Shown one piece after another: positions 10,352 to 46,456 of a stretch of 64,000 bases of DNA. Position 1 is the stretch's first letter; each line of letters starts with the position of its first letter. This DNA is from Candidatus Actinomarina sp. (GTDB taxonomy: Bacteria > Actinomycetota > Acidimicrobiia > Actinomarinales > Actinomarinaceae): NCBI GenBank assembly GCA_045563135.1, contig JBJKUL010000001.1:100731-164730 (forward strand), written 5' to 3'. The position numbers and the translations under genes were made by a program. A model generated the notes under the pieces. It made no database searches and had not been told where the DNA came from. It saw nothing but the letters and a program-made list of their open reading frames with translations.

Positions 10352-11131
10352 ATGGAAAATCTTGATGTTCATATTGTTGGCATAGGTAATTTAGGTTCAT
10401 CGTTAGTTTCTGGATTAAATAATGCTAATAAAGATTTATCCTTGTATTTATACGATCAAAATCCTAAATTATCTTCACTGCATGACTTACCTGTTAAGAA
10501 TGAAATCGATTCTATAAACACAGGAGTCTTAATTTTGTGTATAAAACCAAAAGACATACAAGATTTTATTAAAGCAAACATTAACAAGATCTCTGAAGAT
10601 GTATTGATCTGCACAGTTTTAGCTGGTGTAGAAATTAAATATCTTGAACAATATTTTGCCAATAGAATTATTAGGTTGATGCCTAATTTATCAATAAAAA
10701 ATAACTCTGGTTTCATTCCTTATACAAAAAACTACAATGAAGACTATCTCTCTTTTTTATCAATTCTTAATGAACTAGGAGAAACATCTGAATACGATGA
10801 AAGTTTATTTCATGTAATTACATCTATATACGGGAGTGGACCAGCGTGGTATTTTGAGCTTTCAGCAAAAATAGTTGATGCAGCCACATCCTCTGGTTTA
10901 GACAATAGTGAAGCTAATAAAATTGTACGAGAATTAGTGAAGTCATTACCCTCTTTACTTTCAAATGATGAATTTACTAAAACTGTTGATAAAATTAAAT
11001 CTCCTAATGGTACAACAGAAGCGGGTCTCGATTCGCTAGAAAACGATTCTTTTGATAAGATTATTCTCAATGCAATTAACTCCGCTACAAATAGATCTAA
11101 AACAATTTCTCAAGAAATAGCTAATGATTAA
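10352..11131 (+). CDS. proC: Pyrroline-5-carboxylate reductase-like NAD(P)-binding oxidoreductase
   Basis: N-terminal Rossmann motif (VGIGNLG). The C-terminal SPNGTTEAGL matches the P5CR dimerisation-domain SPGGTTxAGL motif. Confidence 0.6.
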   Translation: MENLDVHIVGIGNLGSSLVSGLNNANKDLSLYLYDQNPKLSSLHDLPVKNEIDSINTGVLILCIKPKDIQDFIKANINKISEDVLICTVLAGVEIKYLEQYFANRIIRLMPNLSIKNNSGFIPYTKNYNEDYLSFLSILNELGETSEYDESLFHVITSIYGSGPAWYFELSAKIVDAATSSGLDNSEANKIVRELVKSLPSLLSNDEFTKTVDKIKSPNGTTEAGLDSLENDSFDKIILNAINSATNRSKTISQEIAND

Positions 11132-13283
11132 TCAAAAAAAATCTAGACAAGTAAATGATTATGTTCTTCTTTTTTCTGCAGGATCAGCTGTTGGAACTTT
11201 ATTTTTGTGGGCGGCTAGTTACATCTTTCCTGAAGGAGATATTGTAGAGGGCAGAAGGGTTTTTGAAAATATTCCAAAATACCTTCAGTATGCATTTTAT
11301 CTTTTGAGTGCTTCATCAGTTTTTATTAGTGGTTATTTATTTTCATTAAGAGCAAAGAATTGGGCTAGAGGTACAAGTGAAAAAAGAAAAACTTCTTTAA
11401 TTTCTAAAATCAAAAATTTTTTTGACGGAATTCTTATGAGAACAGTACTGAGGTTTCGCGCTGCAGGTTTGATGCATTCAATGATTTATATTGGTTTTCT
11501 TGGTTTGTTTGCAGGAACTATAACTTTAGAAATCCATCACTTAATGCCACCTTCATTGAAGTTTCTTCAAGGTACTACTTATTTTATTTATTCGTTTGCA
11601 CTTGAATTAGCATCTTTAGTTTATTTATTTGGGATAGCTTGGGCTCTTTTTAGAAGAATTTTTGGCACGGAGTACAGAATAAAAGTTAAAACAAAAATGG
11701 ATGACTATTTAACTCTTGGTCTCCTTGGATTTATGGGTATTTCTGGTTTAACCACAGAGGCAGGAAGAATTATTGTAGAAGGTTTTCCCGAATATGAAAA
11801 GTGGAGCTTTGTAGGATATTTCATTGCTGAGATTCTTCCCATAGAAAATGGAGTTCTTTTCCATAGGGTATCTTGGATACTTCATGTAGTCTCATTCTTT
11901 ATTTTTCTAATATCTCTTCCTCAATCAAAGCTTAGACATATCATTACCTCTCCAGTAAATATGTTCCTTAGCCCTAAAGATCGACCAAAAGGCGCAATGA
12001 AAGATATCGGAAATCTATTGGAAGCGGAAGACATTGAAACCGTAGGTGCAGAAGTAATCGAAAATTTCTCATGGAAACAACTAGTTGATTTAGATGCATG
12101 TACAGTATGTGGAAGGTGCACATCTGTTTGCCCAGCTAATTTAACTGGAAAACCACTAGACCCACGAGAAATCATTCTGAAAGTTGGTCAAGTAATGTCT
12201 GAGTCCGGTTCTCCACCAGTTCCTGCAACAGTATCTACTCCTGTGGATTTACAGGTTAAAACTGCAAATGTATTTGAAAGAATTACGCCAGAAGAATTAT
12301 GGGCATGCACTTCATGTCGCGCCTGTGATGAAATTTGTCCTGTAAATATAGAAATTTTAGACAAAATACTTGATATGAGAAGACACCTCGCATTAATGGC
12401 CTCCGATTTTCCTTCAGAATTAGGAAAAGCATATGTTGCTATGGAAAACTCATCTAACCCTTGGGGAGCATCTCAAAACGATAGAATGAAATGGTCTGAG
12501 GAACTAGAATTTGATGTACCTATTCTAGAAGAAGAAAACAAAGAAGAAGTAGAGTATTTGTACTGGATAGGATGTGCAGGAGCTTTTGATGATAGGAATG
12601 TTCCAGTAACTAGAGCTGTTGCAACACTCTTAAAACGTGCTGGTGTTTCGTATGCAGTTTTAGGAACAAAAGAAGTTTGTACTGGTGACTCAGCAAGAAG
12701 AACTGGTAACGAGTTTGTATTCCAACAATTAGCAATTCAAAATATTGAAAACATGAACAATCTAAACGTTCAAAAGATTATTACGCAGTGCCCTCATTGT
12801 TTTAATACAATTGCTAATGAATATCCTCAGCTTGGTGGCAACTTTGAAGTTATCCACCACAGTCAATTATTAACTGAACTAGTTCAGTCGGGGAAAATTG
12901 AAGTTGGTACGAGTGACAATCCTTATGTAATTACTTATCATGACTCTTGCTATCTTGGTAGACACAACGACGTATATACAGCCCCTAGAGAGATTCTTGG
13001 ATCAATAGGGGGTATAGAGGTTCGTGAGATGAAGCGTCAGGGTACAAACAGCTTCTGTTGTGGTGCTGGAGGCGGAAGAATGTGGATGGAAGAGTCAACA
13101 GGAAAAAAAGTTAATATTGAACGATCAGAGGAAGCTATTGAAACTGGTGCAGATGAAGTTGCTGTAGCCTGCCCATTTTGCTACATAATGATGGATGATG
13201 GCGTTAAGGAGCTTGGAAAAGGTGAGTCAGTAAAAGTAAGAGATGTTTCTTTAATCCTTCTAGACAACCTAAAAAAAGATTAG
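11124..13283 (+). CDS. Membrane-bound Fe-S oxidoreductase with a NarI/HdrE-like heme-b membrane domain fused to an HdrD/GlpC-like domain (2x[4Fe-4S] plus 2 CCG domains)
   Basis: The N-terminal roughly 290 aa have about 6 TM helices with conserved His. Two ferredoxin motifs follow (CTVCGRCTSVCP, CTSCRACDEICP), then two CCG-type Cys clusters (CPHCFN, SFCCGAGGG). Start overlaps the proC-like stop (AATGATTAA). Confidence 0.7.
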   Translation: MINQKKSRQVNDYVLLFSAGSAVGTLFLWAASYIFPEGDIVEGRRVFENIPKYLQYAFYLLSASSVFISGYLFSLRAKNWARGTSEKRKTSLISKIKNFFDGILMRTVLRFRAAGLMHSMIYIGFLGLFAGTITLEIHHLMPPSLKFLQGTTYFIYSFALELASLVYLFGIAWALFRRIFGTEYRIKVKTKMDDYLTLGLLGFMGISGLTTEAGRIIVEGFPEYEKWSFVGYFIAEILPIENGVLFHRVSWILHVVSFFIFLISLPQSKLRHIITSPVNMFLSPKDRPKGAMKDIGNLLEAEDIETVGAEVIENFSWKQLVDLDACTVCGRCTSVCPANLTGKPLDPREIILKVGQVMSESGSPPVPATVSTPVDLQVKTANVFERITPEELWACTSCRACDEICPVNIEILDKILDMRRHLALMASDFPSELGKAYVAMENSSNPWGASQNDRMKWSEELEFDVPILEEENKEEVEYLYWIGCAGAFDDRNVPVTRAVATLLKRAGVSYAVLGTKEVCTGDSARRTGNEFVFQQLAIQNIENMNNLNVQKIITQCPHCFNTIANEYPQLGGNFEVIHHSQLLTELVQSGKIEVGTSDNPYVITYHDSCYLGRHNDVYTAPREILGSIGGIEVREMKRQGTNSFCCGAGGGRMWMEESTGKKVNIERSEEAIETGADEVAVACPFCYIMMDDGVKELGKGESVKVRDVSLILLDNLKKD

Positions 13284-13597
13284 TTTTTATCACCTAAAAA
13301 AAACTTAGTTACATCACCATTTGATTTTCTAATGCTATAAATAACATAAACAGCTGTTGTTAGGTTTCCTAAGACTATAAGTCCTACAATCCAAAAAAAA
13401 CTTTTTAAGAGAGATTCTTTATAAATAATCCATAATCCAAATAGTGTAAATCCAGCATAAAGGTCTACTAAGGAGACAACACCCCATGGAAGTTCTGGTA
13501 TAGGAGAATCAAGAATTGAAACTTGACTTTGTGCCCAAAATATTACTACTGTCATTGCAATGGCTATACAGTATGAAATTAACTTTGCTATAGTCAT
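13280..13597 (-). CDS. Small integral membrane protein, hypothetical (105 aa, 3 TM)
   Basis: Hydrophobic ORF, convergent with the Fe-S oxidoreductase. No assignable family. Confidence 0.4.
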   Translation of the reverse strand: MTIAKLISYCIAIAMTVVIFWAQSQVSILDSPIPELPWGVVSLVDLYAGFTLFGLWIIYKESLLKSFFWIVGLIVLGNLTTAVYVIYSIRKSNGDVTKFFLGDKN

Positions 13598-13627
13598 ACA
13601 CTAGATTCTAAGGTATAAATAAATAAA

Positions 13628-14236
13628 ATGAAAAACAATACAATTTTTTATAGAGTGCTCCAACTTGATAAGAACATTTATGGAGAGCTGGTTACAGACC
13701 AGTCTTCATTACAAAAAAGCATAGCGATATGGCTTTCCGGTTCAATTATCAGTACTTTAGCGGTAACCACTTTCTTTAAAAACTTAGTTGAGTATTTAAA
13801 AGAAGTGGTTTCACAATCTAGTTCACAACTTCCCCAGGAAGCTGTGTTAGATTTCCAAACTTTAATTATTGAAGTCGAAGAAGGCTTTGAGTCTATAAAT
13901 AATGTAAACTCTCTCATTACAACTCAGCTATTTGGATTTATAAATGTTGTAGTATCTGTCCTAATTATTTTCGCTGTTTTAAAGTATTTTTTTAGAAGAG
14001 ATCCAAACCTATTGTTCATAGGAATCATTTACGGTTTTTCTTCAATACCGATACTTTTGAATGCGCCGATACTCTTTTTTGACTCTTTGGCATTACAAGG
14101 AATAGTTTTAGTAGCAACGAGTATTTTTTCACTTGTATGCTTAGGTTCAGGTCTAAAGCAAGTTTATATGTTAAGGAATATTGAAGTTATTTTGTTAATT
14201 CTTTTTTCTGGTTTTTCAAGTTTGGTTGCAATGTGA
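13628..14236 (+). CDS. Hypothetical multi-pass membrane protein (Yip1-like topology)
   Basis: 202 aa with about 5 TM helices. It overlaps the next gene by 4 nt. Confidence 0.4.
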   Translation: MKNNTIFYRVLQLDKNIYGELVTDQSSLQKSIAIWLSGSIISTLAVTTFFKNLVEYLKEVVSQSSSQLPQEAVLDFQTLIIEVEEGFESINNVNSLITTQLFGFINVVVSVLIIFAVLKYFFRRDPNLLFIGIIYGFSSIPILLNAPILFFDSLALQGIVLVATSIFSLVCLGSGLKQVYMLRNIEVILLILFSGFSSLVAM

Positions 14237-14829
14237 ATGCAGCAATAATTTTAGCTGCTGGGGAATCACTCAGAATGGGGTTCCCTAAGCAATTAGCTGA
14301 GTACAAAGGCTCTACGATTTTAGAAACAACTATTGAAACTGTTTCTACTTTTTTTGAAGAAACAGTAGTTGTTCTTGGATACGAGAACGAAACAATTACC
14401 GAAAAAGTTGACTTTAAGTCAGCTGCGATATTGATAAATGAAAATTGGGAAGAGGGAATTATTTCTTCAATACGAACTGGCTTGCACCACATAAATCATA
14501 ATAAAAATTATGAAAATGTTTTCATATTCTTAGGTGACCAACCCTCAGTTGACCGCAAGGTAATTGAAAAACTACTTGAAACAAAGCATGATTTTGATGA
14601 GGTGATGATACCAAAATATCGTTACAAATTTGGATACCCAGTAGTTGTACCTAAATATTTTTGGAACAAATTAGAACTCATCACGCAAGACAACACTTCT
14701 GATGAGGTAGATTCTGTATTTGGTGAGTTTGATTTAATTAATTTTTTTGAATCTTCAGAATTTAAAACTAAAAGTGTTAATTTTAATTTTCTAAGACCTA
14801 CAGATTTTGATGAACAAAAAGATTTTTAG
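14233..14829 (+). CDS. MobA/MocA-like nucleotidyltransferase (NTP_transf_3) domain protein
   Basis: N-terminal AIILAAGESLRMGFPKQL matches the MobA-like (L)AAGxSxRMG.PK signature. Confidence 0.6.
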   Translation: MNAAIILAAGESLRMGFPKQLAEYKGSTILETTIETVSTFFEETVVVLGYENETITEKVDFKSAAILINENWEEGIISSIRTGLHHINHNKNYENVFIFLGDQPSVDRKVIEKLLETKHDFDEVMIPKYRYKFGYPVVVPKYFWNKLELITQDNTSDEVDSVFGEFDLINFFESSEFKTKSVNFNFLRPTDFDEQKDF

Positions 14830-14890
14830 AGTGGGAAAAACTCTTCTATTTTTTAATTAAATTATATTTATTTTTTTGTAAAATCTAATA

Positions 14891-15295
14891 ATGACTTCAA
14901 TTGATTCTATAAATGGTATGACTCACACCGAAGCAACAAAGCTGAGGAGAGCAAGGGTTCGGACCACAGTCACTTTTCTTCAAATTGCCTCAACTAGATC
15001 AGGTAGAGCATTACTGACAAAAGAAACTGGTATAACATCTCCAAAACTTTTACATTGGGCAAAAAGGGCAGAGCTTATGAAAATCAAGAACCTAGGAAGA
15101 GATTATGCCGACCTTTTAGAAGCTGCAGGAATTGAAAGCATCGCAGAGCTAAAAAGAAGAAATCCAGATTCTCTTCACGAGACCATGGAATTAATTAATA
15201 AAAAGAGAAAAATAGTAGACAGAATGCCTTCTGTAAAACGTGTTTCAAAGTGGATTGAAGAGTCAAAAGATATAAAAATTACAGTATCTTCTTAG
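14891..15295 (+). CDS. DUF4332-like small protein (helix-hairpin-helix-like), hypothetical
   Basis: 134 aa. Composition and length recall DUF4332. The assignment is weak. Confidence 0.35.
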   Translation: MTSIDSINGMTHTEATKLRRARVRTTVTFLQIASTRSGRALLTKETGITSPKLLHWAKRAELMKIKNLGRDYADLLEAAGIESIAELKRRNPDSLHETMELINKKRKIVDRMPSVKRVSKWIEESKDIKITVSS

Positions 15296-15320
15296 TTAAT
15301 CATCAATCTATCATTGTATT

Positions 15321-17030
15321 GTGAATACAAAAAAAATTAGACTAACCGGAGCACAACTTTCATTTTCAGTAGGGGCAATACAGGAAAATAAATCTAAAAT
15401 TCTTGATACATTAGAAGAAGCAGAAAAAATACAATCTGATGTTGTAATTTTTCCAGAACTCTCAATAACGGGATACCCACCAGAAGACCTTCTCTTAAGA
15501 GAAAGCTTTATTGGAAAAAATTTCGCAGTTCTTGAAGAGATTGCTGCGTACTCTGGATCAAGCAGTGCAATTATTGGCTTTGTAGACAGAAGTCTTAACG
15601 AAGACTCAACCGACAACTTTGATAGAAAAATTTCTAATGCTGCTGCAATTGTTCAAAATGGAGATGTCAAAGGAATATATCACAAGTGTTTTCTTCCAAA
15701 TTATTCGGTTTTCGATGAAGCAAGGTATTTTGCTAAAGGAAATAACCCAGCAGATTTATTCTGGTATGACGATATTGCAATAGGAATAAATATCTGTGAA
15801 GATATTTGGATTGATAATGGTCCAGCTGACCGACAGGTCGCATCAGGTGCTTCAATCATTATAAATATAAATGCATCTCCATTTGATATCAATAAGATTG
15901 ACTCTCGTCGTAATCAAGTTATGGAGAAAGCAAAAAAACTAAATGTTCCAATAATATATCTAAATATGGTTGGAGGGCAGGATGAATTAGTGTTTGATGG
16001 AGGCTCCTTTGTAGTTGATTCATCCGGTAAAATAATTTATCAAGCTAGTCAATTTAAAGAGGAAGTTTTCACTTTGGACTTGGAAGTACAAATAAAAGAT
16101 ATTATCTCTGATTCAAAACTCACACTTAACACAAAGACGGAAGAGCTTCCAAATTTAATTTCTCAAGAGACTTTTAATGAACTGGAGTCAATGTATGAAG
16201 CACTTAAACTTGGAGTTTCAGATTATGTACGTAAAAACAATTTTCAAAAGATTCTTGTTGGTTTGTCTGGAGGTATAGATTCAGCTTTAACAGCAACAAT
16301 AGCAGTAGATGCTCTAAGTCCAGAAAATGTGATTGGAATTGCAATGCCCTCAAAATATAATCCTGACAGTTCTTTAGACGACGCCCAACAGCTTGCAGAT
16401 AATTTGGGGATAGAGTTTAAGGTTATTCCAATCGAGGAAACGGTAGAGAGCCTAAGGACATTACTCAAAGATAGCTTGGAAGAACCTCTCGCAGATGTTA
16501 CTGATGAGAATATTCAATCAAGGATTAGGGGAAATATAATCATGGGTCTTTCAAATCAATTAGGAGCTATGGTTTTGTCTACAGGCAACAAATCGGAAAT
16601 GGCTGTAGGTTACTCTACTCTTTATGGTGATCTCGCAGGAGGTTTTGCCTTGCTTAAAGATGTATACAAAACTGAAGTCTATAAACTTGCTGAATTCCGA
16701 AACAAAGAATCAAAAGTAATCCCCTTAAACTCAATTACTAAAGAACCAAGTGCTGAATTAAGGGACGATCAGTTTGATTCAGACTCTTTACCAGATTACG
16801 AATTACTAGATAAGATATTGAAAATGTATATTGAATCTGATTACTCATCAGAAAAAATAATTGCTTCCGGTATAGAAAACAACATTGTTTACGATGTGTT
16901 AGAAAAAGTTGATAAAAATGAATATAAAAGGAAACAAGTAGCACCTGGAGTAAAATTAACAGAAAGAGCTTTTGGTAAAGACAGAAGAATGCCTATTACA
17001 AACACCTACATAAGAGAGAGATATTCTTAA
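15321..17030 (+). CDS. nadE: Glutamine-dependent NAD+ synthetase
   Basis: N-terminal nitrilase/CN-hydrolase domain followed by an NAD synthetase domain with the PP-loop SGGIDSA. Confidence 0.9.
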   Translation: MNTKKIRLTGAQLSFSVGAIQENKSKILDTLEEAEKIQSDVVIFPELSITGYPPEDLLLRESFIGKNFAVLEEIAAYSGSSSAIIGFVDRSLNEDSTDNFDRKISNAAAIVQNGDVKGIYHKCFLPNYSVFDEARYFAKGNNPADLFWYDDIAIGINICEDIWIDNGPADRQVASGASIIININASPFDINKIDSRRNQVMEKAKKLNVPIIYLNMVGGQDELVFDGGSFVVDSSGKIIYQASQFKEEVFTLDLEVQIKDIISDSKLTLNTKTEELPNLISQETFNELESMYEALKLGVSDYVRKNNFQKILVGLSGGIDSALTATIAVDALSPENVIGIAMPSKYNPDSSLDDAQQLADNLGIEFKVIPIEETVESLRTLLKDSLEEPLADVTDENIQSRIRGNIIMGLSNQLGAMVLSTGNKSEMAVGYSTLYGDLAGGFALLKDVYKTEVYKLAEFRNKESKVIPLNSITKEPSAELRDDQFDSDSLPDYELLDKILKMYIESDYSSEKIIASGIENNIVYDVLEKVDKNEYKRKQVAPGVKLTERAFGKDRRMPITNTYIRERYS

Positions 17031-17031
17031 T

Positions 17032-17862
17032 ATGTTCATTATTAATGGTGCAAAAGTAGAAGAAGCTAATTTTGTTGTTCCAATTCAAAATCTATCCTTC
17101 TGGAGGGGTGATGGTATTTTTGAAGCAATAAAAATTCATGAAGGCTATCTTTTTGCTCTAGACCGCCATATAAAAAGATTTAAGCAATCTGCAAAAAAAA
17201 TGCTGTTTGATGATATCGATTTTGAAGAAATAAAAAAAGATATGATCCTCTTAGCTTCAAACTATGCAGAAGGCTACGTAAGAGTGATAATAAGTAGATC
17301 AACATCAAAAAGTGATTATGATGTTTATATTTTTCACCAAGAACCTGTAGAAATCCCAGAACATTACTCTTTACAATCACAACCTAGTCCATGGCATCCT
17401 GGAGGTGATTTTGCATTAGAAGATAATCAGGTAGTAGGAACAAAATCTACATCATATGCTCTGAACATTGCTCAAACACGGATAGCTGAACAAAATGGAT
17501 ATTCAGATGCTTTGCTTTTAAATAGAGAAAATATAGTATTGGAAGGTCCAACATTCTCAATTGGGTGGATAAAAGGGGACACAGTATATGTTCCAGATTT
17601 ACAACTTGGAATTTTAGATTCAATAACTAGACAATACATCCTTCTTTTTGGAAGCAACAATCAAATTAAGGTTAAGGAGAGTCGGATATCCATTGATGAG
17701 ATATATGACGTAGATACAGTTTTTGTAATTTCAACAGCTAAACATGCAAAGTTTGTTTCTAAAATCGATAGTAAAACATATAACCAGAGCCCAATTTTAG
17801 AGTTAATACAAGACTGTTTTACTAAACAAATTGAAATTGAAAAGTTGAACGAATTTAAATAG
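17032..17862 (+). CDS. Class IV (fold-type IV) aminotransferase (BCAT / D-aa aminotransferase / ADC lyase family)
   Basis: 276 aa. Class-IV motifs include FLFALDRHIKRF and EGPTFSIGWIKGDTVYVP. Confidence 0.7.
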   Translation: MFIINGAKVEEANFVVPIQNLSFWRGDGIFEAIKIHEGYLFALDRHIKRFKQSAKKMLFDDIDFEEIKKDMILLASNYAEGYVRVIISRSTSKSDYDVYIFHQEPVEIPEHYSLQSQPSPWHPGGDFALEDNQVVGTKSTSYALNIAQTRIAEQNGYSDALLLNRENIVLEGPTFSIGWIKGDTVYVPDLQLGILDSITRQYILLFGSNNQIKVKESRISIDEIYDVDTVFVISTAKHAKFVSKIDSKTYNQSPILELIQDCFTKQIEIEKLNEFK

Positions 17863-17866
17863 GAGG
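17861..17866 (+). promoter_or_regulatory. Shine-Dalgarno (AGGAGG) for the true selD start
   Basis: AGGAGGTGAA precedes ATG 17871. Confidence 0.7.
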
Positions 17867-17870
17867 TGAA

Positions 17871-18899
17871 ATGAGACTAACAGAGTACTCCCACGGTTCT
17901 GGTTGAGCTTGCAAATTATCTCCTAGTGAGCTTGCACAAGTTTTGTCGCAATTTAAAAATCATAAAGCTTTAGCTGGAAGTAATGTTTCAGTTGGTTTAA
18001 ATAATCCAGATGATGCTGGAGTAGTTGTTGCTTCGGATAAAAATCTTATACAGTCAGTAGACTTTTTTACACCTGTATTGGACAATCCTTATGACTGGGG
18101 AAGAGTTTCTGCTGCAAATGCCCTGTCTGATATTTACGCCATGGGAGGAGAGCCCTTATCAGCTTTACAATTAGTTTGTTGGCCACGTGACCATTTAAGT
18201 TTCGAAATTCTTGGCGATGTAATTAGAGGAGGCTTAGATGTAATGGAAGAAGCAAAGTGTTCTGTAATAGGTGGTCACAGCATAGATGATAATGAGCCTA
18301 AATATGGTTTCTCAGTAACAGGAACGGCTAATGAAAAGATATTTCTTAACAACACTATAAAAAAGGGGGATAAATTATTTTTATCCAAACCTTTAGGTAC
18401 AGGGATTATATCTACTGCTATTAAAAAAGATTTAACGGATTCGAAAGTTGTAAACGAAGCAACGAAAGTAATGGCAAGCCTAAACAATACGGCATCAGAA
18501 TTTGCACATAATTACAATGCCCATGCTGTAACTGATATTACGGGATTTGGTTTATTTGGCCACTTAAGTGAAATGTTGAAGAGTACTAACTTAGGAGCAA
18601 TTATCAATAGCAAAAATATTCCTGCAATAAATGGTGTAAAAGAACTATTAGAGAAGGGATTGTTTTCATCTGGAAGTCAAAGAAATTTCGAGCATGTTAG
18701 TGCCTCAATAATTGACAATACAGAAGATACAAACCTTATAAAACTTTGTTGCGATGCACAAACTAGTGGAGGTCTTCTTGTAGCCATCCCTGAAAAAGAA
18801 GATGTTAATATTCAAGTAATAAAGGAAACAATGGGGTTAAATCTCTGGGAAATAGGTCAGATTAGTGACCAATATATCGAAAAGATAAATATTATCTAA
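17871..18899 (+). CDS. selD: Selenide, water dikinase SelD. It is a selenoprotein with Sec (UGA) at the Cys17-equivalent position; the N-terminus was missed by the ORF track
   Basis: ATG 17871 is in frame with track ORF 17943..18899. Translation gives MRLTEYSHGSG-U-ACKLSPSELAQVL, matching the E. coli [25 protein letters not shown] N-terminus with TGA 17904..17906 at Cys17. Downstream the protein aligns with SelD throughout (DFFTPVLDNPYDWGRV, TDITGFGLFGHLSEM). Confidence 0.85.
17904..17906 (+). other. In-frame UGA recoded as selenocysteine in selD
   Basis: Codon 12 of the extended selD frame. A tRNA-Sec gene is present in the same window. Confidence 0.8.
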
Positions 18900-18904
18900 T
18901 AGTA

Positions 18905-19825
18905 ATGATAAAAAAATTAACAAAATTTTTTGCAGTAGCAACAGTAATAAAAAATTTAATTGGAACTAAGTCCGATAGCACAGAGGGTTTAACTCAGATT
19001 CATCCATCAAAAATACCGGGTAGGACTGTCTTCATTAGAGAAAAAGAATATTTTATTCGAGAATCACTTGTTGAGAACACACTACCAATAGTGTTTCTTC
19101 ATAGCTGGGGCTCTGACTCTCTAGGCAGTTGGTTCAAAGTTCTTCCCTATTTTCATCATAAAAATTCTTTCATTGCAATTGATATGAAAAATCATGGTAA
19201 ATCAGATGCAAGTTGGAAACGATGGGATGTAGATGAGAATGCAGATATAGTAATAAGCATTTTAGAACAGCTAGGAGTAGAGAAGTGCAACCTAGTCGGA
19301 TGGTCGATGGGAAGTGCGGTGGCACTGAGCATATCAAGAAAAAAAGAAAAATTAATAAATAAAATGGTTTTAATTACACCCTTTAGTTGGCTAGGTGGGG
19401 CAGTCTATAAAGATAAGCCCCTATTTAAAGCTTTTGTAGCGGTAGTAAGGATTAGAGAAAGACTATTTCCAAACATGAACTCAAAATCAAAATACTCACA
19501 TCTTCGTAAAACAGGTGCATTAGAAAATGAATATACAGACTGGGCCTGGAATAATTTACATAAATCAAAAGATGATTTTATATATGAAGACGGAGGTAGG
19601 TATGTCGTTCCTTATGACGCAAGACCTTGGTTAAAAGAAATAAAGACTAAAACACTTGTAATTACAGGTGGAAAAGACAATTTAGTTCCAGAAGAGACAT
19701 CTCAGGATGTAATTAAGAATTTAGAAAATGTTAAGGAGCTAATTTTTGATAATGCTGCTCATTCTATTCCATGGACACATGATCAGGAATTAATCGATGA
19801 ACTAGAAGCATTTTTTAAAGAATGA
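18905..19825 (+). CDS. Alpha/beta-fold hydrolase (esterase/lipase-like)
   Basis: HSWG oxyanion-type motif, a GWSMG nucleophile elbow (GxSxG) and a C-terminal His. Confidence 0.7.
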   Translation: MIKKLTKFFAVATVIKNLIGTKSDSTEGLTQIHPSKIPGRTVFIREKEYFIRESLVENTLPIVFLHSWGSDSLGSWFKVLPYFHHKNSFIAIDMKNHGKSDASWKRWDVDENADIVISILEQLGVEKCNLVGWSMGSAVALSISRKKEKLINKMVLITPFSWLGGAVYKDKPLFKAFVAVVRIRERLFPNMNSKSKYSHLRKTGALENEYTDWAWNNLHKSKDDFIYEDGGRYVVPYDARPWLKEIKTKTLVITGGKDNLVPEETSQDVIKNLENVKELIFDNAAHSIPWTHDQELIDELEAFFKE

Positions 19826-20949
19826 AGAATGTCCTTTTTATAGCACCGACTACATACAAGCTTCCGCTAGATGATAACATGCAAAAAAAATTCGAGTTTT
19901 TATCACAAGTTTGCAAACTTAATGTTGTTGCATTTGCAAACGAGAAGAAGGAAATAAAACTAGAAAATGGAGATTTATATTTTTATAAGAAAACATCAAA
20001 CAGGTTTATTAACTACTTTAAAATAATCTTTCTTTCTCTCTTCTCTATTTCAAAGATAATAAAAAGAAAAAAAATAGAGGTAGTTTCATTTCAGGACCCA
20101 GTATCAAGCTTTCTCTCAATGTTTATTATCAAGATGAGACATAAAAATATAAAAGTTATAGTAGAAACACACGGAGATTTCATAGAGACACTAGGTTTGG
20201 AGAAAAATTTAATTTTCCCTAGAATCTATAGAAAGTTGTTCATAAAACTTGCATCATATACCATAAAAAATGCAGATATTATAAGAGCGGTTTCATCCTC
20301 GACAGAAGCTCAAGTTCAAAAAATGAATAAAACAAAAAAAATTGTAAGATTCCCAGCGTGGGTCGATTTTGACGATTTTAAAGACATAGAAATCAACAGA
20401 GTCAATACAACATTTCAAATTTTGTTTATAGGAAGCGTCACAGATAGAAAAAAACCGCACTTAATCATTGAAGCCATGAAGCTTTTAAAAAAAGAAAATA
20501 TAGAACTTCTTATTGTAGGGCCAATGCCGAATGCAAAGTATCTCAGTTTCTTAAAAAATTTAATTAGTGACCACGGACTTGAAGCAAACGTTAAATTTTT
20601 TGGTGAAGTTGATCGAAAAGAAGTTAAATCCTTTTATTCAAAAATTAATTTAATGATACTTCCTTCAGTATCAGAGGGTCTTGCAAGAGTAATATTTGAG
20701 TCACAAGCTACAGCCTGCCCAGTTCTAGTGACAGATGCACCTGGAATGGGAGATATTGTAATTGATGGTCAAACAGGTTATGTATTTGAGAGTAATAATG
20801 TTGAAAGTTTGGCAAAAAAAATCCAGTATATTGAAGAAAATTATGATGAAGCAATGCATGTTGGAAGAAACGCTAAGGACTTTATTCTGAATAATTATTC
20901 TGCTGAAAACTTTAAATTTAGCTTTAAAAAGATTTTTGATACAGTTTAA
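19822..20949 (+). CDS. Glycosyltransferase family 4 (GT-B, retaining)
   Basis: The C-terminal domain carries EGLARVIFESQATACPVLVTD...GQTGYVFE, the EX7E-type GT4 motif. Confidence 0.75.
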   Translation: MKNVLFIAPTTYKLPLDDNMQKKFEFLSQVCKLNVVAFANEKKEIKLENGDLYFYKKTSNRFINYFKIIFLSLFSISKIIKRKKIEVVSFQDPVSSFLSMFIIKMRHKNIKVIVETHGDFIETLGLEKNLIFPRIYRKLFIKLASYTIKNADIIRAVSSSTEAQVQKMNKTKKIVRFPAWVDFDDFKDIEINRVNTTFQILFIGSVTDRKKPHLIIEAMKLLKKENIELLIVGPMPNAKYLSFLKNLISDHGLEANVKFFGEVDRKEVKSFYSKINLMILPSVSEGLARVIFESQATACPVLVTDAPGMGDIVIDGQTGYVFESNNVESLAKKIQYIEENYDEAMHVGRNAKDFILNNYSAENFKFSFKKIFDTV

Positions 20950-21009
20950 ATAAAGCAATCTTAAGGTATTTTTCTAATAATTGTCTACCCTTATTGCTAT
21001 TCTTGAATC

Positions 21010-22029
21010 ATGGAAATTGTAATTTACGCATTGAACATAGTACTTATGTTTGTAATTATCTATATCGTTTCTCGAAAAGACGAAGTTGTTGAAAAAGATG
21101 ATGAGTATTTAATTAAGGGAATAGTAAGTGAGCTAATTGAAAATGAAGAGTCTCAAATCTATAAGCTTCTTGATAAATCAGATAGAACTGTAAAAGACTT
21201 TTTAGAAAAAACAGGAGAAATTAAAAGTTCAATTAGTGGAGTAGACCAACAAACTAGAAATCTTATATCTGTACTTAACAACAATCAGAGTCGAGGTCAA
21301 TGGGCCGAGTTTCAAGTAGAAGATTTACTCAGCATCATGGAATATAAAGATGGAATTCATTACGAATCCCAAAAAATCATGAAAAGTGGAAATAAGCCTG
21401 ACTTTACATTTTATTTACCTGATAATAAAACAATCAATATGGATTCAAAGTTTCCCTTGAATTTATATATGCAGCTATCAAAATTAAATCTTGACTTAGA
21501 AGATGAAACCTTAGACGAAATTTCAAGAAAGCAAATTACTGATAGTATAAAAATTAAAAATAAAGAATTTATCGATAAAGCAATTAAAACTAAAATCGAT
21601 GAAACTTCTTCAAGGGAGGGATACATTTCACCGGAGGAAGACACCGTAGATTTTGTATTAATGTATATACCTCTTGAAAATTTGTATCACTTTCTTTTAA
21701 CATCTGAAATTGGTGCAAACAAAACACCTGTAATTCAATACGCTTTTGCAAAAAAAGTTATTTTAGTAAGTCCTCAAACACTTATGGCATATTTAGAGAC
21801 TATAAGGCATTCAATGAAGTTATTTAGCTTGCAGACTGATACTAAGAATATTCTCCTGGCACATGAAAAAGTAAAGAACGAAATCAGCAAATTTATAGAA
21901 TCTTTTGATGATGTTACAAAAAGATTAGATCAAACAGTAGAATCTTTCGAAAAACTAAAGACTACTCGAAAAAATAAGCTAGAAAAATCATTTGAAGAGT
22001 TAACTGAAATCAATAAAAAAGTTGATTAA
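21010..22029 (+). CDS. rmuC: DNA recombination protein RmuC
   Basis: N-terminal TM, coiled coil and an RmuC core (NKPDFTFYLPDNKTINMDSKFPLNLY). Confidence 0.7.
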   Translation: MEIVIYALNIVLMFVIIYIVSRKDEVVEKDDEYLIKGIVSELIENEESQIYKLLDKSDRTVKDFLEKTGEIKSSISGVDQQTRNLISVLNNNQSRGQWAEFQVEDLLSIMEYKDGIHYESQKIMKSGNKPDFTFYLPDNKTINMDSKFPLNLYMQLSKLNLDLEDETLDEISRKQITDSIKIKNKEFIDKAIKTKIDETSSREGYISPEEDTVDFVLMYIPLENLYHFLLTSEIGANKTPVIQYAFAKKVILVSPQTLMAYLETIRHSMKLFSLQTDTKNILLAHEKVKNEISKFIESFDDVTKRLDQTVESFEKLKTTRKNKLEKSFEELTEINKKVD

Positions 22030-22035
22030 TACTTT

Positions 22036-22428
22036 TTAGTAATTATCGATTAGTCCCGCTACAACCATGATGCATTTATCATCAATATAATTTTTATTTT
22101 CTGATTTAAGAAAGTTTGAAATTTCTTCACTTTCTGCACCTGGCTGATACCAAAAGTTGTCATAGCCATTGGCGACAAGATCTTTTGTAATTTCAAATCC
22201 TACACCTGGCGGTACCACAAAATTAATTATTGAGGGACATTCAGCAATCTCTTTAACATCTTTATGGACTTTGATACCCTGAATTTCATGTTCTTTAGTG
22301 TTTATAGGTAAAACTTCATGTCCTTTATGTTTGAGATCGAGTAGTATTTTAAATCCGTACTTACTCTCGTCATTACTTGCTCCGATTAGCGCAATTGAAT
22401 TAGTTTTATCTTTTAAAAGTTCAATCAA
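22036..22428 (-). CDS. CoA-binding domain protein (YccU/YneT family)
   Basis: IALIGASNDESKYGFKI....VLPIN, the CoA_binding_2 pattern. Confidence 0.7.
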   Translation of the reverse strand: MIELLKDKTNSIALIGASNDESKYGFKILLDLKHKGHEVLPINTKEHEIQGIKVHKDVKEIAECPSIINFVVPPGVGFEITKDLVANGYDNFWYQPGAESEEISNFLKSENKNYIDDKCIMVVAGLIDNY

Positions 22429-24228
22429 TTAGAAATTTTCAGATTTAATACTGTATAAATCTTCTTTACCAGCTTTGATTGAAGAAGTATATCCTGATGC
22501 CAGAGGTAATAATTGTTCCATGTAGAAATTAGAAAGAGTAATCTTATCCGCATAGAACTCATCATTAGTATCTTCAAACTTTTTCTTAGCTAGAATTGCA
22601 GCTTTAGCCATGTAATAACCGCCGATAACTTGGCCAAACATTTTCATGTAAGGGGTTGCTGCAGAGCTAGCATCTACAAGCTCTCCTTCAAGCATTTTTC
22701 CACCCAGCCAAAGAGTTACCTCAGATAAATTAGTGACTTCTTTATCTAAAAGAGAAGCCATCTTTTGTAAGTCCTCATCCCCAGTTTTCATTGTTTCAAT
22801 AGTTTCATTTACCTCAGATAACAAACGTTGCATTGCTTGACCTCCATCTAAAGGTAATTTTCTAAACATGAGATCTAATGCCTGAATACCATTAGTCCCC
22901 TCATAAATTGGCGCAATTCTTGCATCCCTTAAGTATTGAGCTACCCCAGTTTCTTCAACATAACCCATGCCTCCATAGACCTGTATCGCAATTGAGCTTA
23001 GCTCAACACCAAGATCAGAAACCCAGGCTTTAGTAACTGGAGTTAGTAGACCACACCTTTCTTCACCAAAAGATTTAGTTTCTTCATCTTCTGCAAAATA
23101 CTCTAGATCCATCATCAACTGATTATCATACATAAGATATCTCATGGCATCCGTATATGCCTTCATAGTCATAAGCATTCTTCTTACATCTGCGTGATCA
23201 ATGATTGTTGATTTCTTTGCATCTTCCTTACTCATTCCTACAGGTCTTCCTTGAACACGATCACGTGCATATTGAGCCGCACCTTGAAGTGCAGGCACAG
23301 CACAGGAAAGTCCTTGACCGCCAACCCAAACTCTGGCTTCGTTCATCATTGTAAACATGTAGGTTAAACCTCTATTTTCTTCTCCAACTAAATAGCCTAT
23401 AGCACCTTTATCTCCACCATATTCCATAACACAAGTCGGACTTGCATGAATTCCTAATTTTTCTTCGATAGATAAACATTTAACTTCGTTACGATCACCA
23501 AGAGATCCATCATCATTAACCATAAATTTAGGGACAATAAACATAGAAATCCCCTTAGTTCCCTCTGGTGAACCAGGTACTTTAGCTAGAACTAAATGGA
23601 TAATATTTTCTGTCATATCATGTTCACCAAAAGTGATCCATACTTTTGTACCAGTGATGCTATAGGTACCATCTTCGTTTTTCTCAGCTTTTGTAGTGAT
23701 TGTTCCCAAGTCGGATCCAGACTGTGGTTCACTTAAATTCATTGTTCCGGTCCACTCTCCAGAAACTAATTTTGGAAGAAATTTATCTTTTTGTTCCTGA
23801 CTTCCATGAAAGTTGAGTGCTGATATTGCTCCTGCACTCAAACCTGGAGCTAGTCCAAAAGCAAGATTTGCAGAACTAAGTATTTCTAATGTTCCTCCTG
23901 ACAAAACTACAGGCATTCCTCCACCACCTATTTCTGATGGGAGAGAGATTGATGACCAACCAGCCTCTGCAAATTTCTTATAAGCATCTACAAAACCATC
24001 AGGCATTGTTACCACAGAGTCTTTGATTGTTGCTCCATTTTCATCACCGATGGCATTTATTGGAGCTAAAACCTCTTCGGCAAATTTTCCACATTCTTCC
24101 ATAGTCGGTATAACTATGTCTTCAGAAAAGTCACTAAACTGGCTAATTTTTGACAGAACATCATAAGAGTTGATTACTTGATATCCGAATACGATGTCTT
24201 TTATTGGAGCTTTATAATTCACAGCCAT
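22429..24228 (-). CDS. Long-chain acyl-CoA dehydrogenase (FadE-like, with C-terminal extension)
   Basis: 599 aa with ACAD N/M/C domains (GxxG, YGGMGY..E active-site region) and a C-terminal helical extension. Confidence 0.85.
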   Translation of the reverse strand: MAVNYKAPIKDIVFGYQVINSYDVLSKISQFSDFSEDIVIPTMEECGKFAEEVLAPINAIGDENGATIKDSVVTMPDGFVDAYKKFAEAGWSSISLPSEIGGGGMPVVLSGGTLEILSSANLAFGLAPGLSAGAISALNFHGSQEQKDKFLPKLVSGEWTGTMNLSEPQSGSDLGTITTKAEKNEDGTYSITGTKVWITFGEHDMTENIIHLVLAKVPGSPEGTKGISMFIVPKFMVNDDGSLGDRNEVKCLSIEEKLGIHASPTCVMEYGGDKGAIGYLVGEENRGLTYMFTMMNEARVWVGGQGLSCAVPALQGAAQYARDRVQGRPVGMSKEDAKKSTIIDHADVRRMLMTMKAYTDAMRYLMYDNQLMMDLEYFAEDEETKSFGEERCGLLTPVTKAWVSDLGVELSSIAIQVYGGMGYVEETGVAQYLRDARIAPIYEGTNGIQALDLMFRKLPLDGGQAMQRLLSEVNETIETMKTGDEDLQKMASLLDKEVTNLSEVTLWLGGKMLEGELVDASSAATPYMKMFGQVIGGYYMAKAAILAKKKFEDTNDEFYADKITLSNFYMEQLLPLASGYTSSIKAGKEDLYSIKSENF

Positions 24229-24267
24229 TGTTTTATTTTACTATATTCTATAAAGAACGCGTAATTT

Positions 24268-25116
24268 TTACCTAGGAGTAACTTCAACTAATTCTGATAT
24301 TTCTTCAATCTTTTTAAGTGTTGGCATATCATTAGTTCCAGCAGTGATTGCTCCAGCTGCACAAGCATTTTTGATAGTTAGGATAATATCTTCTACTCCA
24401 TGGGCAGCTATATAAGCCGCTGTAGCATCACCGGCTCCTGTTGAATTAATAGTTTTAAAATCAGGAGGAGTTATTTCAACCGCACCCTCTGAGCTTATTA
24501 ATCTAGCAGGTAGATTTGAGTGAGTAAGTAATATTCTCGATACTAAATCTTGATTTAGTAATTTTTCAGCTTCAACAACGTCTATTTCATCTTTACTAAC
24601 AACTAAGAAATCAATCTTATAGTCTATTGTATGTTCATAACCTGCTTGAACAACAAAAACGCCACTATCGGTTATTTCAGAGATATTGTCTTTTATATGT
24701 GGAATAGAATACCTGTCAATAAGTAAAGAGTCATAGTCTTTAATCCCTTTAATTTCATTCCACGTGCACTTAGAGTAACCAGATGAAATTATGGTTCTTT
24801 CGCCATCTTTGTCAACAAAGATAGAGCAGGTAGGTGTTGGCAATTCCGAAAAGAGTATGTTTTCATGAGATATGTTTTTCTTATCTAATTCATCTATCAG
24901 ATAAGAGCCTAATGAGTCTTTACCTATGCTATTGCCAAGTACTGACACATCTATTCCCCAATTAGCAATATTTTTTGCACAGTTAATAGCAGTCCCACCG
25001 GCACGAATTTGATAATCATTGCCTCTAATATCTCCTCCAGCAACCGGAAGGTCATCTATAAAATAGATGAGATCTGGATTAAGTGTTCCGTAGCAAAGTA
25101 TCTTTTGATAACTCAT
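24268..25116 (-). CDS. PfkB-family carbohydrate or nucleoside kinase
   Basis: N-terminal GG motif and a C-terminal STGAGDATAAY (GAGD) ATP-binding motif. Confidence 0.7.
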   Translation of the reverse strand: MSYQKILCYGTLNPDLIYFIDDLPVAGGDIRGNDYQIRAGGTAINCAKNIANWGIDVSVLGNSIGKDSLGSYLIDELDKKNISHENILFSELPTPTCSIFVDKDGERTIISSGYSKCTWNEIKGIKDYDSLLIDRYSIPHIKDNISEITDSGVFVVQAGYEHTIDYKIDFLVVSKDEIDVVEAEKLLNQDLVSRILLTHSNLPARLISSEGAVEITPPDFKTINSTGAGDATAAYIAAHGVEDIILTIKNACAAGAITAGTNDMPTLKKIEEISELVEVTPR

Positions 25117-25159
25117 AACTTTAATATAATGTATTAAAAATAAACTGAAAGAAAGAAAA

Positions 25160-46361: not shown

Positions 46362-46456
46362 TGGCGGAGGTGGACGGGAATCGAACCCGCCAAAGACTTT
46401 TACACCTTTCACCAGTTTTGAAGACCGGGGAGCCCACCAGGCGCTCATTCACCTCC
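46362..46456 (-). tRNA. selC: tRNA-Sec (selenocysteine tRNA, anticodon UCA), 95 nt including encoded CCA
   Basis: The reverse complement reads GGAGGTGAATGAGCGCCTGGTGGGCTCCCCGGTCTTCAAAACTGGTGAAAGGTGTAAAAGTCTTTGGCGGGTTCGATTCCCGTCCACCTCCGCCA. The anticodon arm CCGGT/CTTCAAA/ACTGG gives U33-UCA-A37. Acceptor plus T helix total 13 bp (7+6 or 8+5), the discriminator is G, the variable arm is about 20 nt and the T-loop is TTCGATT. Confidence 0.8.

What the first reader, a model, noticed from the sequence alone, without database searches (positions are those of the whole stretch)
17861..17960. selD is itself a selenoprotein: in-frame UGA at the catalytic Cys17 position, with the N-terminus missed by ORF calling
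A strong RBS (AGGAGG) and ATG at 17871 open a frame continuous with the called ORF. It encodes MRLTEYSHGSG-[TGA]-ACKLSPSELAQVL. This aligns residue by residue with the SelD N-terminus (E. coli [20 protein letters not shown]) and puts TGA where Cys17 normally sits. Sec at that position is a known feature of Sec-containing SelD. The ORF track only begins at an internal TTG (17943), deleting the active-site loop. Together with the tRNA-Sec 28 kb away, this shows an active Sec-decoding trait in this AT-rich, streamlined lineage. The rest of the machinery (selA, selB) and any further selenoproteins must lie outside this window or be hidden behind UGA.
Basis: partly seen in the sequence, partly recalled or inferred. 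Interest (0 to 1): 0.8.

Follow-up and report, generated by a model that had tools for sequence, protein, structure and literature searches.

The report
Selenocysteine-containing selD with its SECIS hairpin
The selenophosphate synthetase gene of this tiny marine actinobacterium (Actinomarinales) does carry an in-frame UGA that encodes selenocysteine at its catalytic site and that gene callers misread as a stop. This kind of SelD has been known since the 1990s and was reported for this genus in a 2026 preprint; what I add is the mRNA hairpin that most likely directs the recoding.

Summary
AGGAGG lies at 17861-66, ATG at 17871 and an in-frame TGA at 17904-06, and the frame runs on to the stop at 18897-99 (342 codons). 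The TGA aligns to Cys17 of E. coli SelD. The N-terminal extension raises the TIGR00476 score from 331 to 371 bits and restores full profile coverage. UGA is otherwise an ordinary stop here (12 of 56 genes; 260 in-frame TGG against 1 in-frame TGA). A tRNA-Sec lies at 46362-46456(-).

The lineage is Ca. Actinomarinales. All 17 orthologous loci examined keep the TGA, and none of the 120 closest database proteins has Cys. The likely SECIS is a hairpin at 17927-17955 (core 17932-17951, loop GUU, bulged C17947). It is weak as a stand-alone fold but is supported by compensatory changes and by strong synonymous-site conservation (p = 8e-8).

selA and selB are not in the window. A 2026 preprint reports both, and Sec-SelD itself, in 84 complete Actinomarina genomes. 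Sec-SelD is one of the two most widespread bacterial selenoproteins. Verdict: correct but already known.

The parts
17861..17866 (+). Shine-Dalgarno sequence AGGAGG of the true selD start
   Evidence: Read directly from the sequence. A GGAGGTG core is conserved upstream of the start codon in the 8 close relatives.
17871..18899 (+). Full-length selD (selenide, water dikinase), 342 codons including one Sec codon
   Evidence: TIGR00476 scores 370.6 bits (cutoff 125) over profile positions 1-309. E. coli SelD 3U0O matches at E = 2.8e-75 over residues 1-331. Orthologues are syntenic in 16 loci.
17904..17906 (+). UGA selenocysteine codon (residue 12, equivalent to Cys17 of E. coli SelD)
   Evidence: Aligned to Cys17. 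TGA is kept in 17 of 17 Actinomarinales loci and 75 of 80 metagenomic SelD loci. It is the only in-frame TGA in 56 genes.
17927..17955 (+). Probable SECIS hairpin. The core stem is 17932-17939 paired with 17943-17951. The apical loop GUU is 17940-17942, C17947 is bulged, and a weak lower stem pairs 17927-17930 with 17952-17955.
   Evidence: RNAalifold predicts it independently. 96.5% of cells are paired, against 24-45% in slid controls; 3 pairs carry compensatory changes; 0 of 500 shuffles reach the covariation score. The same register holds in 34 distinct Sec-SelD sequences: pair +32/+42 is UA 15, CG 14, AU 4, GC 1 and is never broken. Synonymous sites are frozen and rare codons are used.
17943..17945 (+). 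Internal TTG wrongly used as the start codon by ORF and gene callers; it lies in the 3' strand of the hairpin
   Evidence: the database entries of 317-318 aa begin here.
46362..46456 (-). tRNA-Sec (selC), anticodon UCA
   Evidence: ARAGORN. Rfam RF01852 scores 75.3 bits, E = 1.2e-13, full length. The 28.5 kb distance to selD matches the 0.025 genome fraction in the preprint's Table 8.

Best explanation
This is the single selD gene of a Candidatus Actinomarinales bacterium, and it encodes a selenocysteine-containing selenophosphate synthetase.

Translation starts at ATG 17871. When the ribosome reaches UGA 17904, SelB carrying Sec-tRNA(Sec) is tethered by a small mRNA hairpin inside the coding sequence (17927-17955, loop G-U-N at +36 to +38 from the UGA). 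Sec is then inserted in the glycine-rich catalytic loop (SHGSG-U-AC-K), where E. coli has Cys17. The tRNA comes from the selC gene at 46362-46456.

The enzyme makes selenophosphate for SelA, so it is needed for its own synthesis, which is an autocatalytic loop.

Shown here: the gene, the conserved UGA, the standard genetic code, the tRNA-Sec, and the conservation and covariation of the hairpin.
Inferred: SelB binding to the hairpin, actual Sec insertion, and the autoregulatory consequence.
Taken from the literature: selA and selB elsewhere in the genome.
For: UGA conservation across deep divergence: 54-80% protein identity, perfect 15-gene synteny, and 17 of 17 loci with TGA. No Cys form appears among the 120 closest database clusters.

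The code is standard: stops are TAA 32, TGA 12, TAG 12, and in-frame TGG 260 against TGA 1. The other TGA-terminated genes are start-stop overlaps.

tRNA-Sec is confirmed.

Evidence for the hairpin:
- RNAalifold recovers it.
- Within Actinomarinales, compensatory A-U to U-A occurs at 17936/17946, A-U to G-C at 17939/17943 (L015, against the AT bias), and U-A to C-G at 17927/17955 (L009).
- In 34 distinct sequences from loci of 29-71% GC, the four upper pairs are kept almost without exception, with four Watson-Crick types at +32/+42.
- The five Cys-SelD loci lack the hairpin.
- Codons 13-32 are codon-invariant at 15 of 20 degenerate positions, against 30 of 190 elsewhere (odds ratio 16, p = 7.8e-8). 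The hairpin uses rare codons: TCG is 3% of Ser and TTG is 12% of Leu.
- The only free nucleotide in the close clade is the third loop base, 17942.

G-U at the 5' side of the loop matches the SelB contact bases G23/U24 of the E. coli SECIS (PMC8659212).

selA, a divergent selB, selC and selD are reported in 84 of 84 complete Actinomarina genomes, together with a Sec-SelD family with an 'MRLT* prefix, 342-346 aa' (bioRxiv 10.64898/2026.04.03.716425).
Against: - The hairpin is thermodynamically marginal in this lineage: -4.3 kcal/mol at 37 C, with z = -0.15 against shuffles.
- Part of the covariation (CAA..UUG against CAG..CUG) tracks genomic GC content.
- The A-U/U-A split inside Actinomarinales may be a single evolutionary event.
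- The invariant loop G-U is also the first two bases of a conserved Val codon.
- The core stem starts 25 nt after the UGA, against 11 nt in E. coli, and the bulge is on the 3' strand, not the 5' strand.
- No Rfam family matches.
- selA and selB were not verified with these tools, and selB scores below the KofamScan threshold in the preprint.
- There is no protein-level evidence for Sec.
Confidence: 0.9

Rival explanations
1. The genome uses a reassigned genetic code (code 4, UGA = Trp, or code 25, UGA = Gly). On this reading the TGA is an ordinary sense codon, as the 'GSGWACK' database entries suggest.
For: 47 public protein entries of about 341 aa carry W at this position. The genome is AT-rich at 34% GC.
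Against: TGA ends 12 of 56 genes, and selD holds the only in-frame TGA, against 260 TGG. The W entries are identical downstream to truncated 317-aa entries (P0021 against P0067), and the matching DNA reads TGA (L009 and L011 against P0027), so W is a gene-caller artefact. The position aligns to the catalytic Cys17, not to a Trp or Gly, and a dedicated tRNA-Sec is present.
Confidence: 0.01
2. The TGA is a real stop. On this reading selD is either a pseudogene or is made as an N-terminally truncated protein from TTG 17943, and the upstream 11 codons are not part of it.
For: Standard gene callers and NCBI annotate it this way ('SelD, partial', P0009). The hairpin is weak as a fold.
Against: The 11 upstream codons are conserved as protein while varying at synonymous sites, and they are preceded by a conserved strong RBS. 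TTG 17943 has no RBS and lies inside the hairpin. The truncated product would lack the Sec/Cys17-Lys20 loop, which is needed for catalysis according to established SelD biochemistry (my own knowledge). TGA at this exact codon is kept in 17 of 17 orthologues and in 75 of 80 diverse SelD loci, which a nonsense mutation would not produce.
Confidence: 0.03
3. The UGA is recoded, but the cis signal is not the 17927-17955 hairpin. It would instead be the direct-repeat stem 17905-12/17926-33, or the stem 17899-17906/17919-17926 that contains the UGA. The downstream nucleotide conservation would then have another cause.
For: The direct-repeat stem pairs in 94.8% of cells. RNAalifold also draws a stem 17899-17926 that includes the UGA. 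In E. coli the lower SECIS stem begins right after the UGA.
Against: Neither alternative stem has a single compensatory change. The central pair of the direct-repeat stem is broken in 4 of 12 distinct sequences. The window itself has a U-U mismatch in the stem that contains the UGA. Only the 17927-17955 hairpin is shared in register with Sec-SelD mRNAs from distant lineages, and it is absent from Cys-SelD.
Confidence: 0.06

Closest known systems
Sec-containing selenophosphate synthetase (SelD). Examples from my own knowledge: Haemophilus influenzae, Aquifex aeolicus (structures 2ZOD and 2YYE solved as Sec-to-Cys variants), Methanocaldococcus jannaschii, and Guimaraes et al. 1996. PMC1794560 reports FdhA and SelD as the most widespread bacterial selenoproteins. 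PMC2398784 counts 357 Sec-SelD sequences in GOS.
   Same: The fold and family are the same (TIGR00476, AIR-synthase-like N and C domains). UGA sits at the Cys17-equivalent position of the N-terminal glycine-rich loop, followed by x-C-K. The SECIS lies inside the coding sequence. The autocatalytic logic is the same.
   Different: Nothing differs in kind. The host is an extremely streamlined (about 1.1 Mb), AT-rich, aerobic photoheterotroph, and the hairpin is unusually weak.
Actinomarina Sec-SelD as reported in 'Actinomarina, resolved' (bioRxiv 10.64898/2026.04.03.716425, April 2026)
   Same: It is the same protein family ('MRLT* prefix, 342-346 aa'). The selD-selC spacing is the same (0.025 of the genome, about 27 kb, against 28.5 kb here). 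The conclusion that the lineage decodes Sec is the same.
   Different: The preprint found no SECIS, because its Rfam models failed. It also states that only about half of the genomes carry the Sec form and that the rest are presumably Cys. Here a SECIS candidate is defined, and 17 of 17 loci and 0 of 120 database clusters argue against a common Cys form.
E. coli fdhF-type bacterial SECIS (PMC8659212; Liu et al. 1998, cited there)
   Same: It is a stem-loop in the coding region 3' of the UGA. G-U at the 5' side of the apical loop is invariant. One nucleotide is bulged from the stem.
   Different: The core stem begins 25 nt after the UGA, against 11 nt, so the loop G is at +36 and not about +22. 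The loop has 3 nt. The bulge is a C on the 3' strand, not U17 on the 5' strand, and it is absent from most homologous SelD hairpins. Stability is only about -4 kcal/mol.

Membership tests
SelD / selenide, water dikinase (TIGR00476, NF002098) | Full-length match above the curated equivalog cutoff | tested here: met
   TIGR00476 scores 370.6 bits (cutoff 125). NF002098 scores 335.5 bits (cutoff 299), and passes only with the N-terminal extension.
SelD / selenide, water dikinase (TIGR00476, NF002098) | N-terminal glycine-rich loop with Sec/Cys17 and Lys20 (E. coli numbering) | tested here: met
   SHGSG-U-AC-K aligns to SHGAG-C17-GC-K20 of 3U0O.
SelD / selenide, water dikinase (TIGR00476, NF002098) | AIR-synthase-related N and C domains (PF00586, PF02769) | tested here: met
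   Both domains are precomputed on the 99%-identical P0001 and on all 120 hits.
SelD / selenide, water dikinase (TIGR00476, NF002098) | ATP-dependent selenophosphate synthesis activity | not testable with these tools
   This needs an enzyme assay.
Bacterial selenoprotein gene | In-frame UGA aligned to Cys in homologues and conserved in orthologues | tested here: met
   17 of 17 orthologues have TGA. 5 of 80 metagenomic homologues have TGT at the same codon.
Bacterial selenoprotein gene | SECIS stem-loop downstream of the UGA | tested here: met
   The hairpin 17927-17955 is supported by covariation and synonymous constraint. It is not supported by folding energy alone.
Bacterial selenoprotein gene | tRNA-Sec in the genome | tested here: met
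Bacterial selenoprotein gene | selA and selB in the genome | not testable with these tools
   Neither is in the 64 kb window. Both are reported in 84 of 84 complete genomes, with selB below the profile threshold, in bioRxiv 10.64898/2026.04.03.716425.
Bacterial selenoprotein gene | Selenium actually incorporated in the protein | not testable with these tools
   This needs 75Se labelling or mass spectrometry.
E. coli fdhF-type SECIS | Conserved G (and U) at the 5' side of the apical loop | tested here: met
   G and U are invariant in 34 of 34 sequences. This is confounded with the Val codon GUN.
E. coli fdhF-type SECIS | Upper stem-loop 11 nt from the UGA | tested here: not met
   The core stem starts at +28, leaving 25 nt between the UGA and the stem. 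The E. coli rule is from PMC8659212.
E. coli fdhF-type SECIS | Bulged U on the 5' strand (U17) | tested here: not met
   The bulged base in the core stem is C17947 on the 3' strand. Most homologous hairpins outside Actinomarinales have no bulge.
Rfam SECIS families | Covariance-model match | tested here: not met
   Only chance-level hits to unrelated families, with E above 3. There was no gathering-score hit other than tRNA-Sec.
Alternative genetic code (table 4 or 25) | UGA used as a sense codon genome-wide and not as a stop | tested here: not met
   12 of 56 genes end in TGA, and there is 1 in-frame TGA against 260 TGG.

The most novel reading that the evidence does not exclude
Sec-SelD may be the only selenophosphate synthetase in every Actinomarinales genome, with no Cys variant, contrary to the preprint's 'about half'. 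It may be recoded by an unusually weak, distal SECIS: loop G at +36, a bulge on the 3' strand, and about -4 kcal/mol. That SECIS would belong to a cross-phylum, SelD-specific hairpin class built on the codons for E/D-L-A/T-Q-V-L, and it would have co-evolved with the divergent SelB of this order. If so, the whole selenoproteome of one of the most abundant ocean bacteria would depend on a self-dependent enzyme and a marginal RNA signal. The hairpin class could also serve as a covariance model for finding and correctly annotating Sec-SelD genes.
Probability: 0.45. Interest if true: 0.4.

Novelty: already known. Interest (0 to 1): 0.22.

Why it matters
For annotation, public databases hold this gene either truncated (317-318 aa, lacking the catalytic loop) or with a false Trp, so pipelines that do not model Sec misdescribe a core enzyme of an abundant ocean lineage.

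For biology, it confirms that a genome of about 1.1 Mb pays for the whole Sec apparatus, and that its selenophosphate synthetase depends on its own product. This ties the lineage's selenoproteome to selenium supply.

The increment here is a defined and testable SECIS, plus evidence that the Sec form is universal in the order and not found in only half of the genomes. The central fact is not new.

Tried and rejected
- selA and selB next to selC: the three large ORFs downstream of tRNA-Sec are HflX, Gnd and PepN. The EF-Tu-like GTPase at 27834-29663 is BipA/TypA.
- Other selenoprotein genes in the window: I screened all TGA-joined frames, all intergenic gaps and all 12 TGA-terminated genes. The results were only start-stop overlaps and antisense frames.
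- Single-sequence folding as evidence for a SECIS: not significant.
- Rfam, with gathering and with permissive thresholds: no SECIS family match.
- A constraint on the codon before the UGA: it is GGT throughout Actinomarinales, but GGT, GGC, GGA and GGG all occur in the wide set, so there is none.
- The published bSECISearch geometry (UGA-to-loop distance of 16-37 nt, as I recall it): I could not confirm it in the papers held, so I do not use it as evidence.
Full report
**Observation.** AGGAGG lies at 17861-17866, ATG at 17871, and the translation is MRLTEYSHGSG, then TGA at 17904-17906, then ACKLSPSELAQVL... The frame is continuous with the ORF that mechanical ORF listing starts at TTG 17943 and ends at 18899. 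The 10-nt direct repeat TGAGCTTGCA at 17904 and 17927 is also there.

**Is it SelD with the UGA at Cys17?** Yes.
- With the extension (Cys substituted for the stop), the protein scores 370.6 bits on the NCBIfam equivalog TIGR00476 over profile positions 1-309.
- The TTG-start ORF scores 331.2 bits over positions 28-309.
- NF002098 passes its curated cutoff only with the extension.
- phmmer against PDB sequences aligns residues 1-18 to I6[11 protein letters not shown]17-G-C19-K20-ISP of E. coli SelD (3U0O). The UGA is opposite Cys17 and Lys15 is opposite Lys20.

**Is UGA a sense codon in general?** No. Among 56 genes in the window, 12 end in TGA, 32 in TAA and 12 in TAG. Inside reading frames there are 260 TGG codons and a single TGA, the one in selD. 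I screened every TGA-joined frame pair, all intergenic gaps and all TGA-terminated genes. These gave only ATGA, GTGA or TTGA start-stop overlaps and antisense frames. selD is therefore the only recognisable selenoprotein gene in this window.

**Sec machinery.**
- ARAGORN and Rfam (RF01852, 75.3 bits, gathering score 47) agree on a tRNA-Sec at 46362-46456 on the minus strand.
- Its neighbours are HflX, Gnd and PepN, not selA or selB.
- Pfam and NCBIfam scans of all 56 ORFs found no SelA, SelB or SelU. The only EF-Tu-like GTPase is BipA.

**Lineage and conservation.**
- A scan of GTDB species representatives returned eight Candidatus Actinomarinales/Acidimicrobiia genomes at 77-80% identity, with tblastn matches running through the stop. 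All eight have TGA at the same codon.
- A metagenome scan returned eight further loci at 57-62% identity. These share a perfectly syntenic gene block running at least from NadE to the glycosyltransferase, and from P5CR to the DsrE-like gene where the flanks allow. They are therefore orthologues, and all have TGA.
- The 11 codons before the UGA are conserved as protein but vary freely at synonymous sites, which shows they are translated.
- Among all 80 metagenomic SelD loci, 75 have TGA and 5 have TGT.
- Among the 120 closest protein clusters in the database, 73 start downstream of the TGA and 47 have 'W' at the site.
- The W entries are the same genes as the truncated ones. P0021 equals P0067 plus the N-terminus, and the DNA of L009 and L011 reads TGA where P0027 has W. 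The W is therefore an artefact of code-4 gene calling.
- None of the 120 has Cys.

**The SECIS.** Single-sequence folding is uninformative. The region folds no better than shuffles (z = -0.5 and -0.26). The candidate hairpin alone is worth -4.3 kcal/mol, with z = -0.15. The comparative evidence is much stronger.

1. *Synonymous constraint.* In nine sequences of about 75% nucleotide identity, 15 of 20 degenerate codons at positions 13-32 are codon-invariant, against 30 of 190 in the rest of the gene (odds ratio 16, Fisher p = 7.8e-8). The stretch also uses codons that are rare in this genome: TCG is 3% of Ser, TTG is 12% of Leu, and GAG is 24% of Glu.
2. *Independent prediction.* RNAalifold on 14 Actinomarinales sequences predicts one hairpin, at window 17927-17955. 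Its parts are:
   - upper stem 17936-17939 paired with 17943-17946;
   - loop GUU at 17940-17942;
   - bulged C17947;
   - middle stem 17932-17935 paired with 17948-17951;
   - bulged C17931;
   - a weak G-U-rich lower stem, 17927-17930 paired with 17952-17955.
3. *Pair counts in Actinomarinales.* 96.5% of cells are paired, against 24-45% when the 3' partner is slid by 1-3 columns. Three pairs carry compensatory changes, and 0 of 500 shuffles reach the observed covariation score.
   - 17936/17946 is A-U in six distinct sequences and U-A in six.
   - 17939/17943 changes from A-U to G-C in L015, against the AT bias of that genome.
   - 17927/17955 changes from U-A to C-G in L009.
   - L010 changes G-C to U-A and moves the bulge.
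   - In the close clade the only variable base is 17942, the third loop nucleotide.
4. *The same hairpin in distant lineages.* It occurs in the same register in a broad set of Sec-SelD mRNAs that encode [DE]-L-[AT]-Q-V-L, from loci of 29-71% GC. The figures below are from 34 distinct sequences.
   - Pair +32/+42 is never broken and takes four forms: UA 15, CG 14, AU 4, GC 1.
   - Pair +35/+39 is GC 17, AU 16, with one sequence broken.
   - Double-sided changes number 47 cells, against 14.7 +/- 5.8 in shuffles.
   - In those lineages the hairpin is an unbulged 8-bp stem and is clearly stable: L030 gives -8.2 kcal/mol (z = -3.5) and L017 gives -13.7 kcal/mol (z = -2.4).
5. *Controls.* The five Cys-SelD loci and a second Sec-SelD class (GPGDL..AL) do not form this hairpin.

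*Caveats.*
- The CAA..UUG against CAG..CUG alternation partly follows GC content.
- The A-U/U-A split within the order may be a single event.
- The invariant loop G-U is also the start of a conserved Val codon.

**Comparison with the E. coli SECIS.** The reference is summarised in PMC8659212: a 17-nt upper stem-loop 11 nt from the UGA, a bulged U17, and G23/U24 as the SelB contacts.
- This hairpin shares the G-U at the 5' side of the loop and has a bulged base.
- Its core stem lies 25 nt from the UGA.
- Its bulge is on the 3' strand.
- Its loop has 3 nt.

It works like a bacterial SECIS but does not meet the E. coli geometry. No Rfam model matches it.

**What is already known.**
- Sec-containing SelD is a classical selenoprotein. 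[quoted passage not shown]
- PMC2398784 counted 357 Sec-SelD sequences in 40 GOS samples. Two of my sister-clade loci are GOS contigs.
- For this genus, the preprint 'Actinomarina, resolved' (bioRxiv 10.64898/2026.04.03.716425) makes four relevant reports:
  - selC, selA and selD in all 84 complete genomes;
  - a divergent selB in all 84;
  - no selU;
  - a Sec-SelD family with an 'MRLT* prefix, 342-346 aa'.
- Its Table 8 places selD at about 0.077 and selC at about 0.102 of the chromosome, roughly 27 kb apart. That matches the 28.5 kb here. It places selA at about 0.92, which explains why selA is not in the window.
- The preprint found no SECIS. It inferred that about half of the genomes carry a Cys form, which my 17 of 17 loci and 0 of 120 clusters do not support.

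**Verdict.** This analysis adds three things:
- a defined and testable SECIS hairpin;
- evidence that the Sec form is universal across the order;
- identification of the database artefacts (truncated entries and false Trp).

Interest is low.

Noticed in passing
window 18840-18910: The last ~15 codons of selD are also frozen at synonymous sites (8 of 10 degenerate codons invariant). ...GAAAAGATAAATATTAT-stop is nucleotide-identical across both Actinomarinales clades. The downstream alpha/beta-hydrolase gene (18905-19825, MIKK...) starts 3-6 nt after the selD stop in nearly all loci examined (15 shown). This is probably a translational-coupling or initiation region.
   Followed up: partly
window 10352-25525; L001-L016: A 15-gene block (P5CR, CCG/Fe-S protein, unknown, MobA-like, DUF4332, NadE, class IV aminotransferase, selD, alpha/beta hydrolase, GT4, RmuC, CoA-binding, acyl-CoA dehydrogenase, PfkB, DsrE-like) is perfectly syntenic in every locus with enough flank. 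This includes loci with only 54-60% SelD identity, although the preprint describes gene order as extensively rearranged. SelD is among the least conserved proteins of the block (75-79%, against 84-96% for most neighbours).
   Followed up: partly
database proteins P0006, P0021-P0066: 47 public SelD entries of about 341 aa carry Trp at the Sec position because metagenome gene callers translated TGA with code 4. Another 73 entries are truncated at an internal TTG or ATG. NCBI labels one of them 'SelD, partial'. No correctly annotated U-containing entry appeared among the 120 closest clusters.
   Followed up: yes
L025, L032, L048, L056, L059, L065, L066, L070, L073, L075, L077, L079, L088 (U-A-S-K); L043 (U-A-G-K) and L081 (U-A-A-K): 15 of the 80 metagenomic Sec-SelD loci have U-A-S-K (13 loci), U-A-G-K (L043) or U-A-A-K (L081) in place of U-A-C-K, so they lack the Cys19 equivalent. 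Most of them encode GPGDL..AL/VL (L043, L077 and L081 do not) and, like the U-A-C-K loci that encode the same motif, they lack the hairpin in the window's register. In several GPGDL loci a different, UGA-proximal hairpin (CCGGGNGACCUGG from +18) is possible. This suggests at least two SECIS classes within one protein family.
   Followed up: no
bioRxiv 10.64898/2026.04.03.716425, Supplementary Table 8: The rows flagged 'selC in HVR = Y' (for example selA 0.109, selC 0.890, selD 0.911) are close to 1-x mirror images of the 'N' rows (0.917, 0.102, 0.077). The reported variable position of selC, inside the hypervariable region in 32 of 84 genomes, may therefore reflect genome orientation and not mobility. 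In this window selC lies between hflX and an unknown ORF, in ordinary housekeeping context.
   Followed up: no
window 27517-27780 (+) and 9984-10187 (-): Two small ORFs lie in the two largest intergenic gaps. One is an 87-aa protein with two CxxC pairs (CPKC...CSKC, zinc-ribbon-like). The other is a 67-aa Cys-rich protein. Both fall below the usual ORF length cutoffs.
   Followed up: no
window 46509-47105 (+), 31796-32908 (-), 13628-14236 (+): Three sizeable ORFs (198, 370 and 202 aa) have no Pfam hit at E <= 0.001, and the first has no NCBIfam hit either. The first lies directly next to tRNA-Sec. The third is conserved in the syntenic block.
   Followed up: no
window 25160-25525 (+): This is a 121-aa DsrE/DsrF-like protein. 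DsrE-like proteins are a known bacterial selenoprotein family (listed in PMC1794560), but this copy has no in-frame TGA and is 89-95% conserved in relatives.
   Followed up: partly
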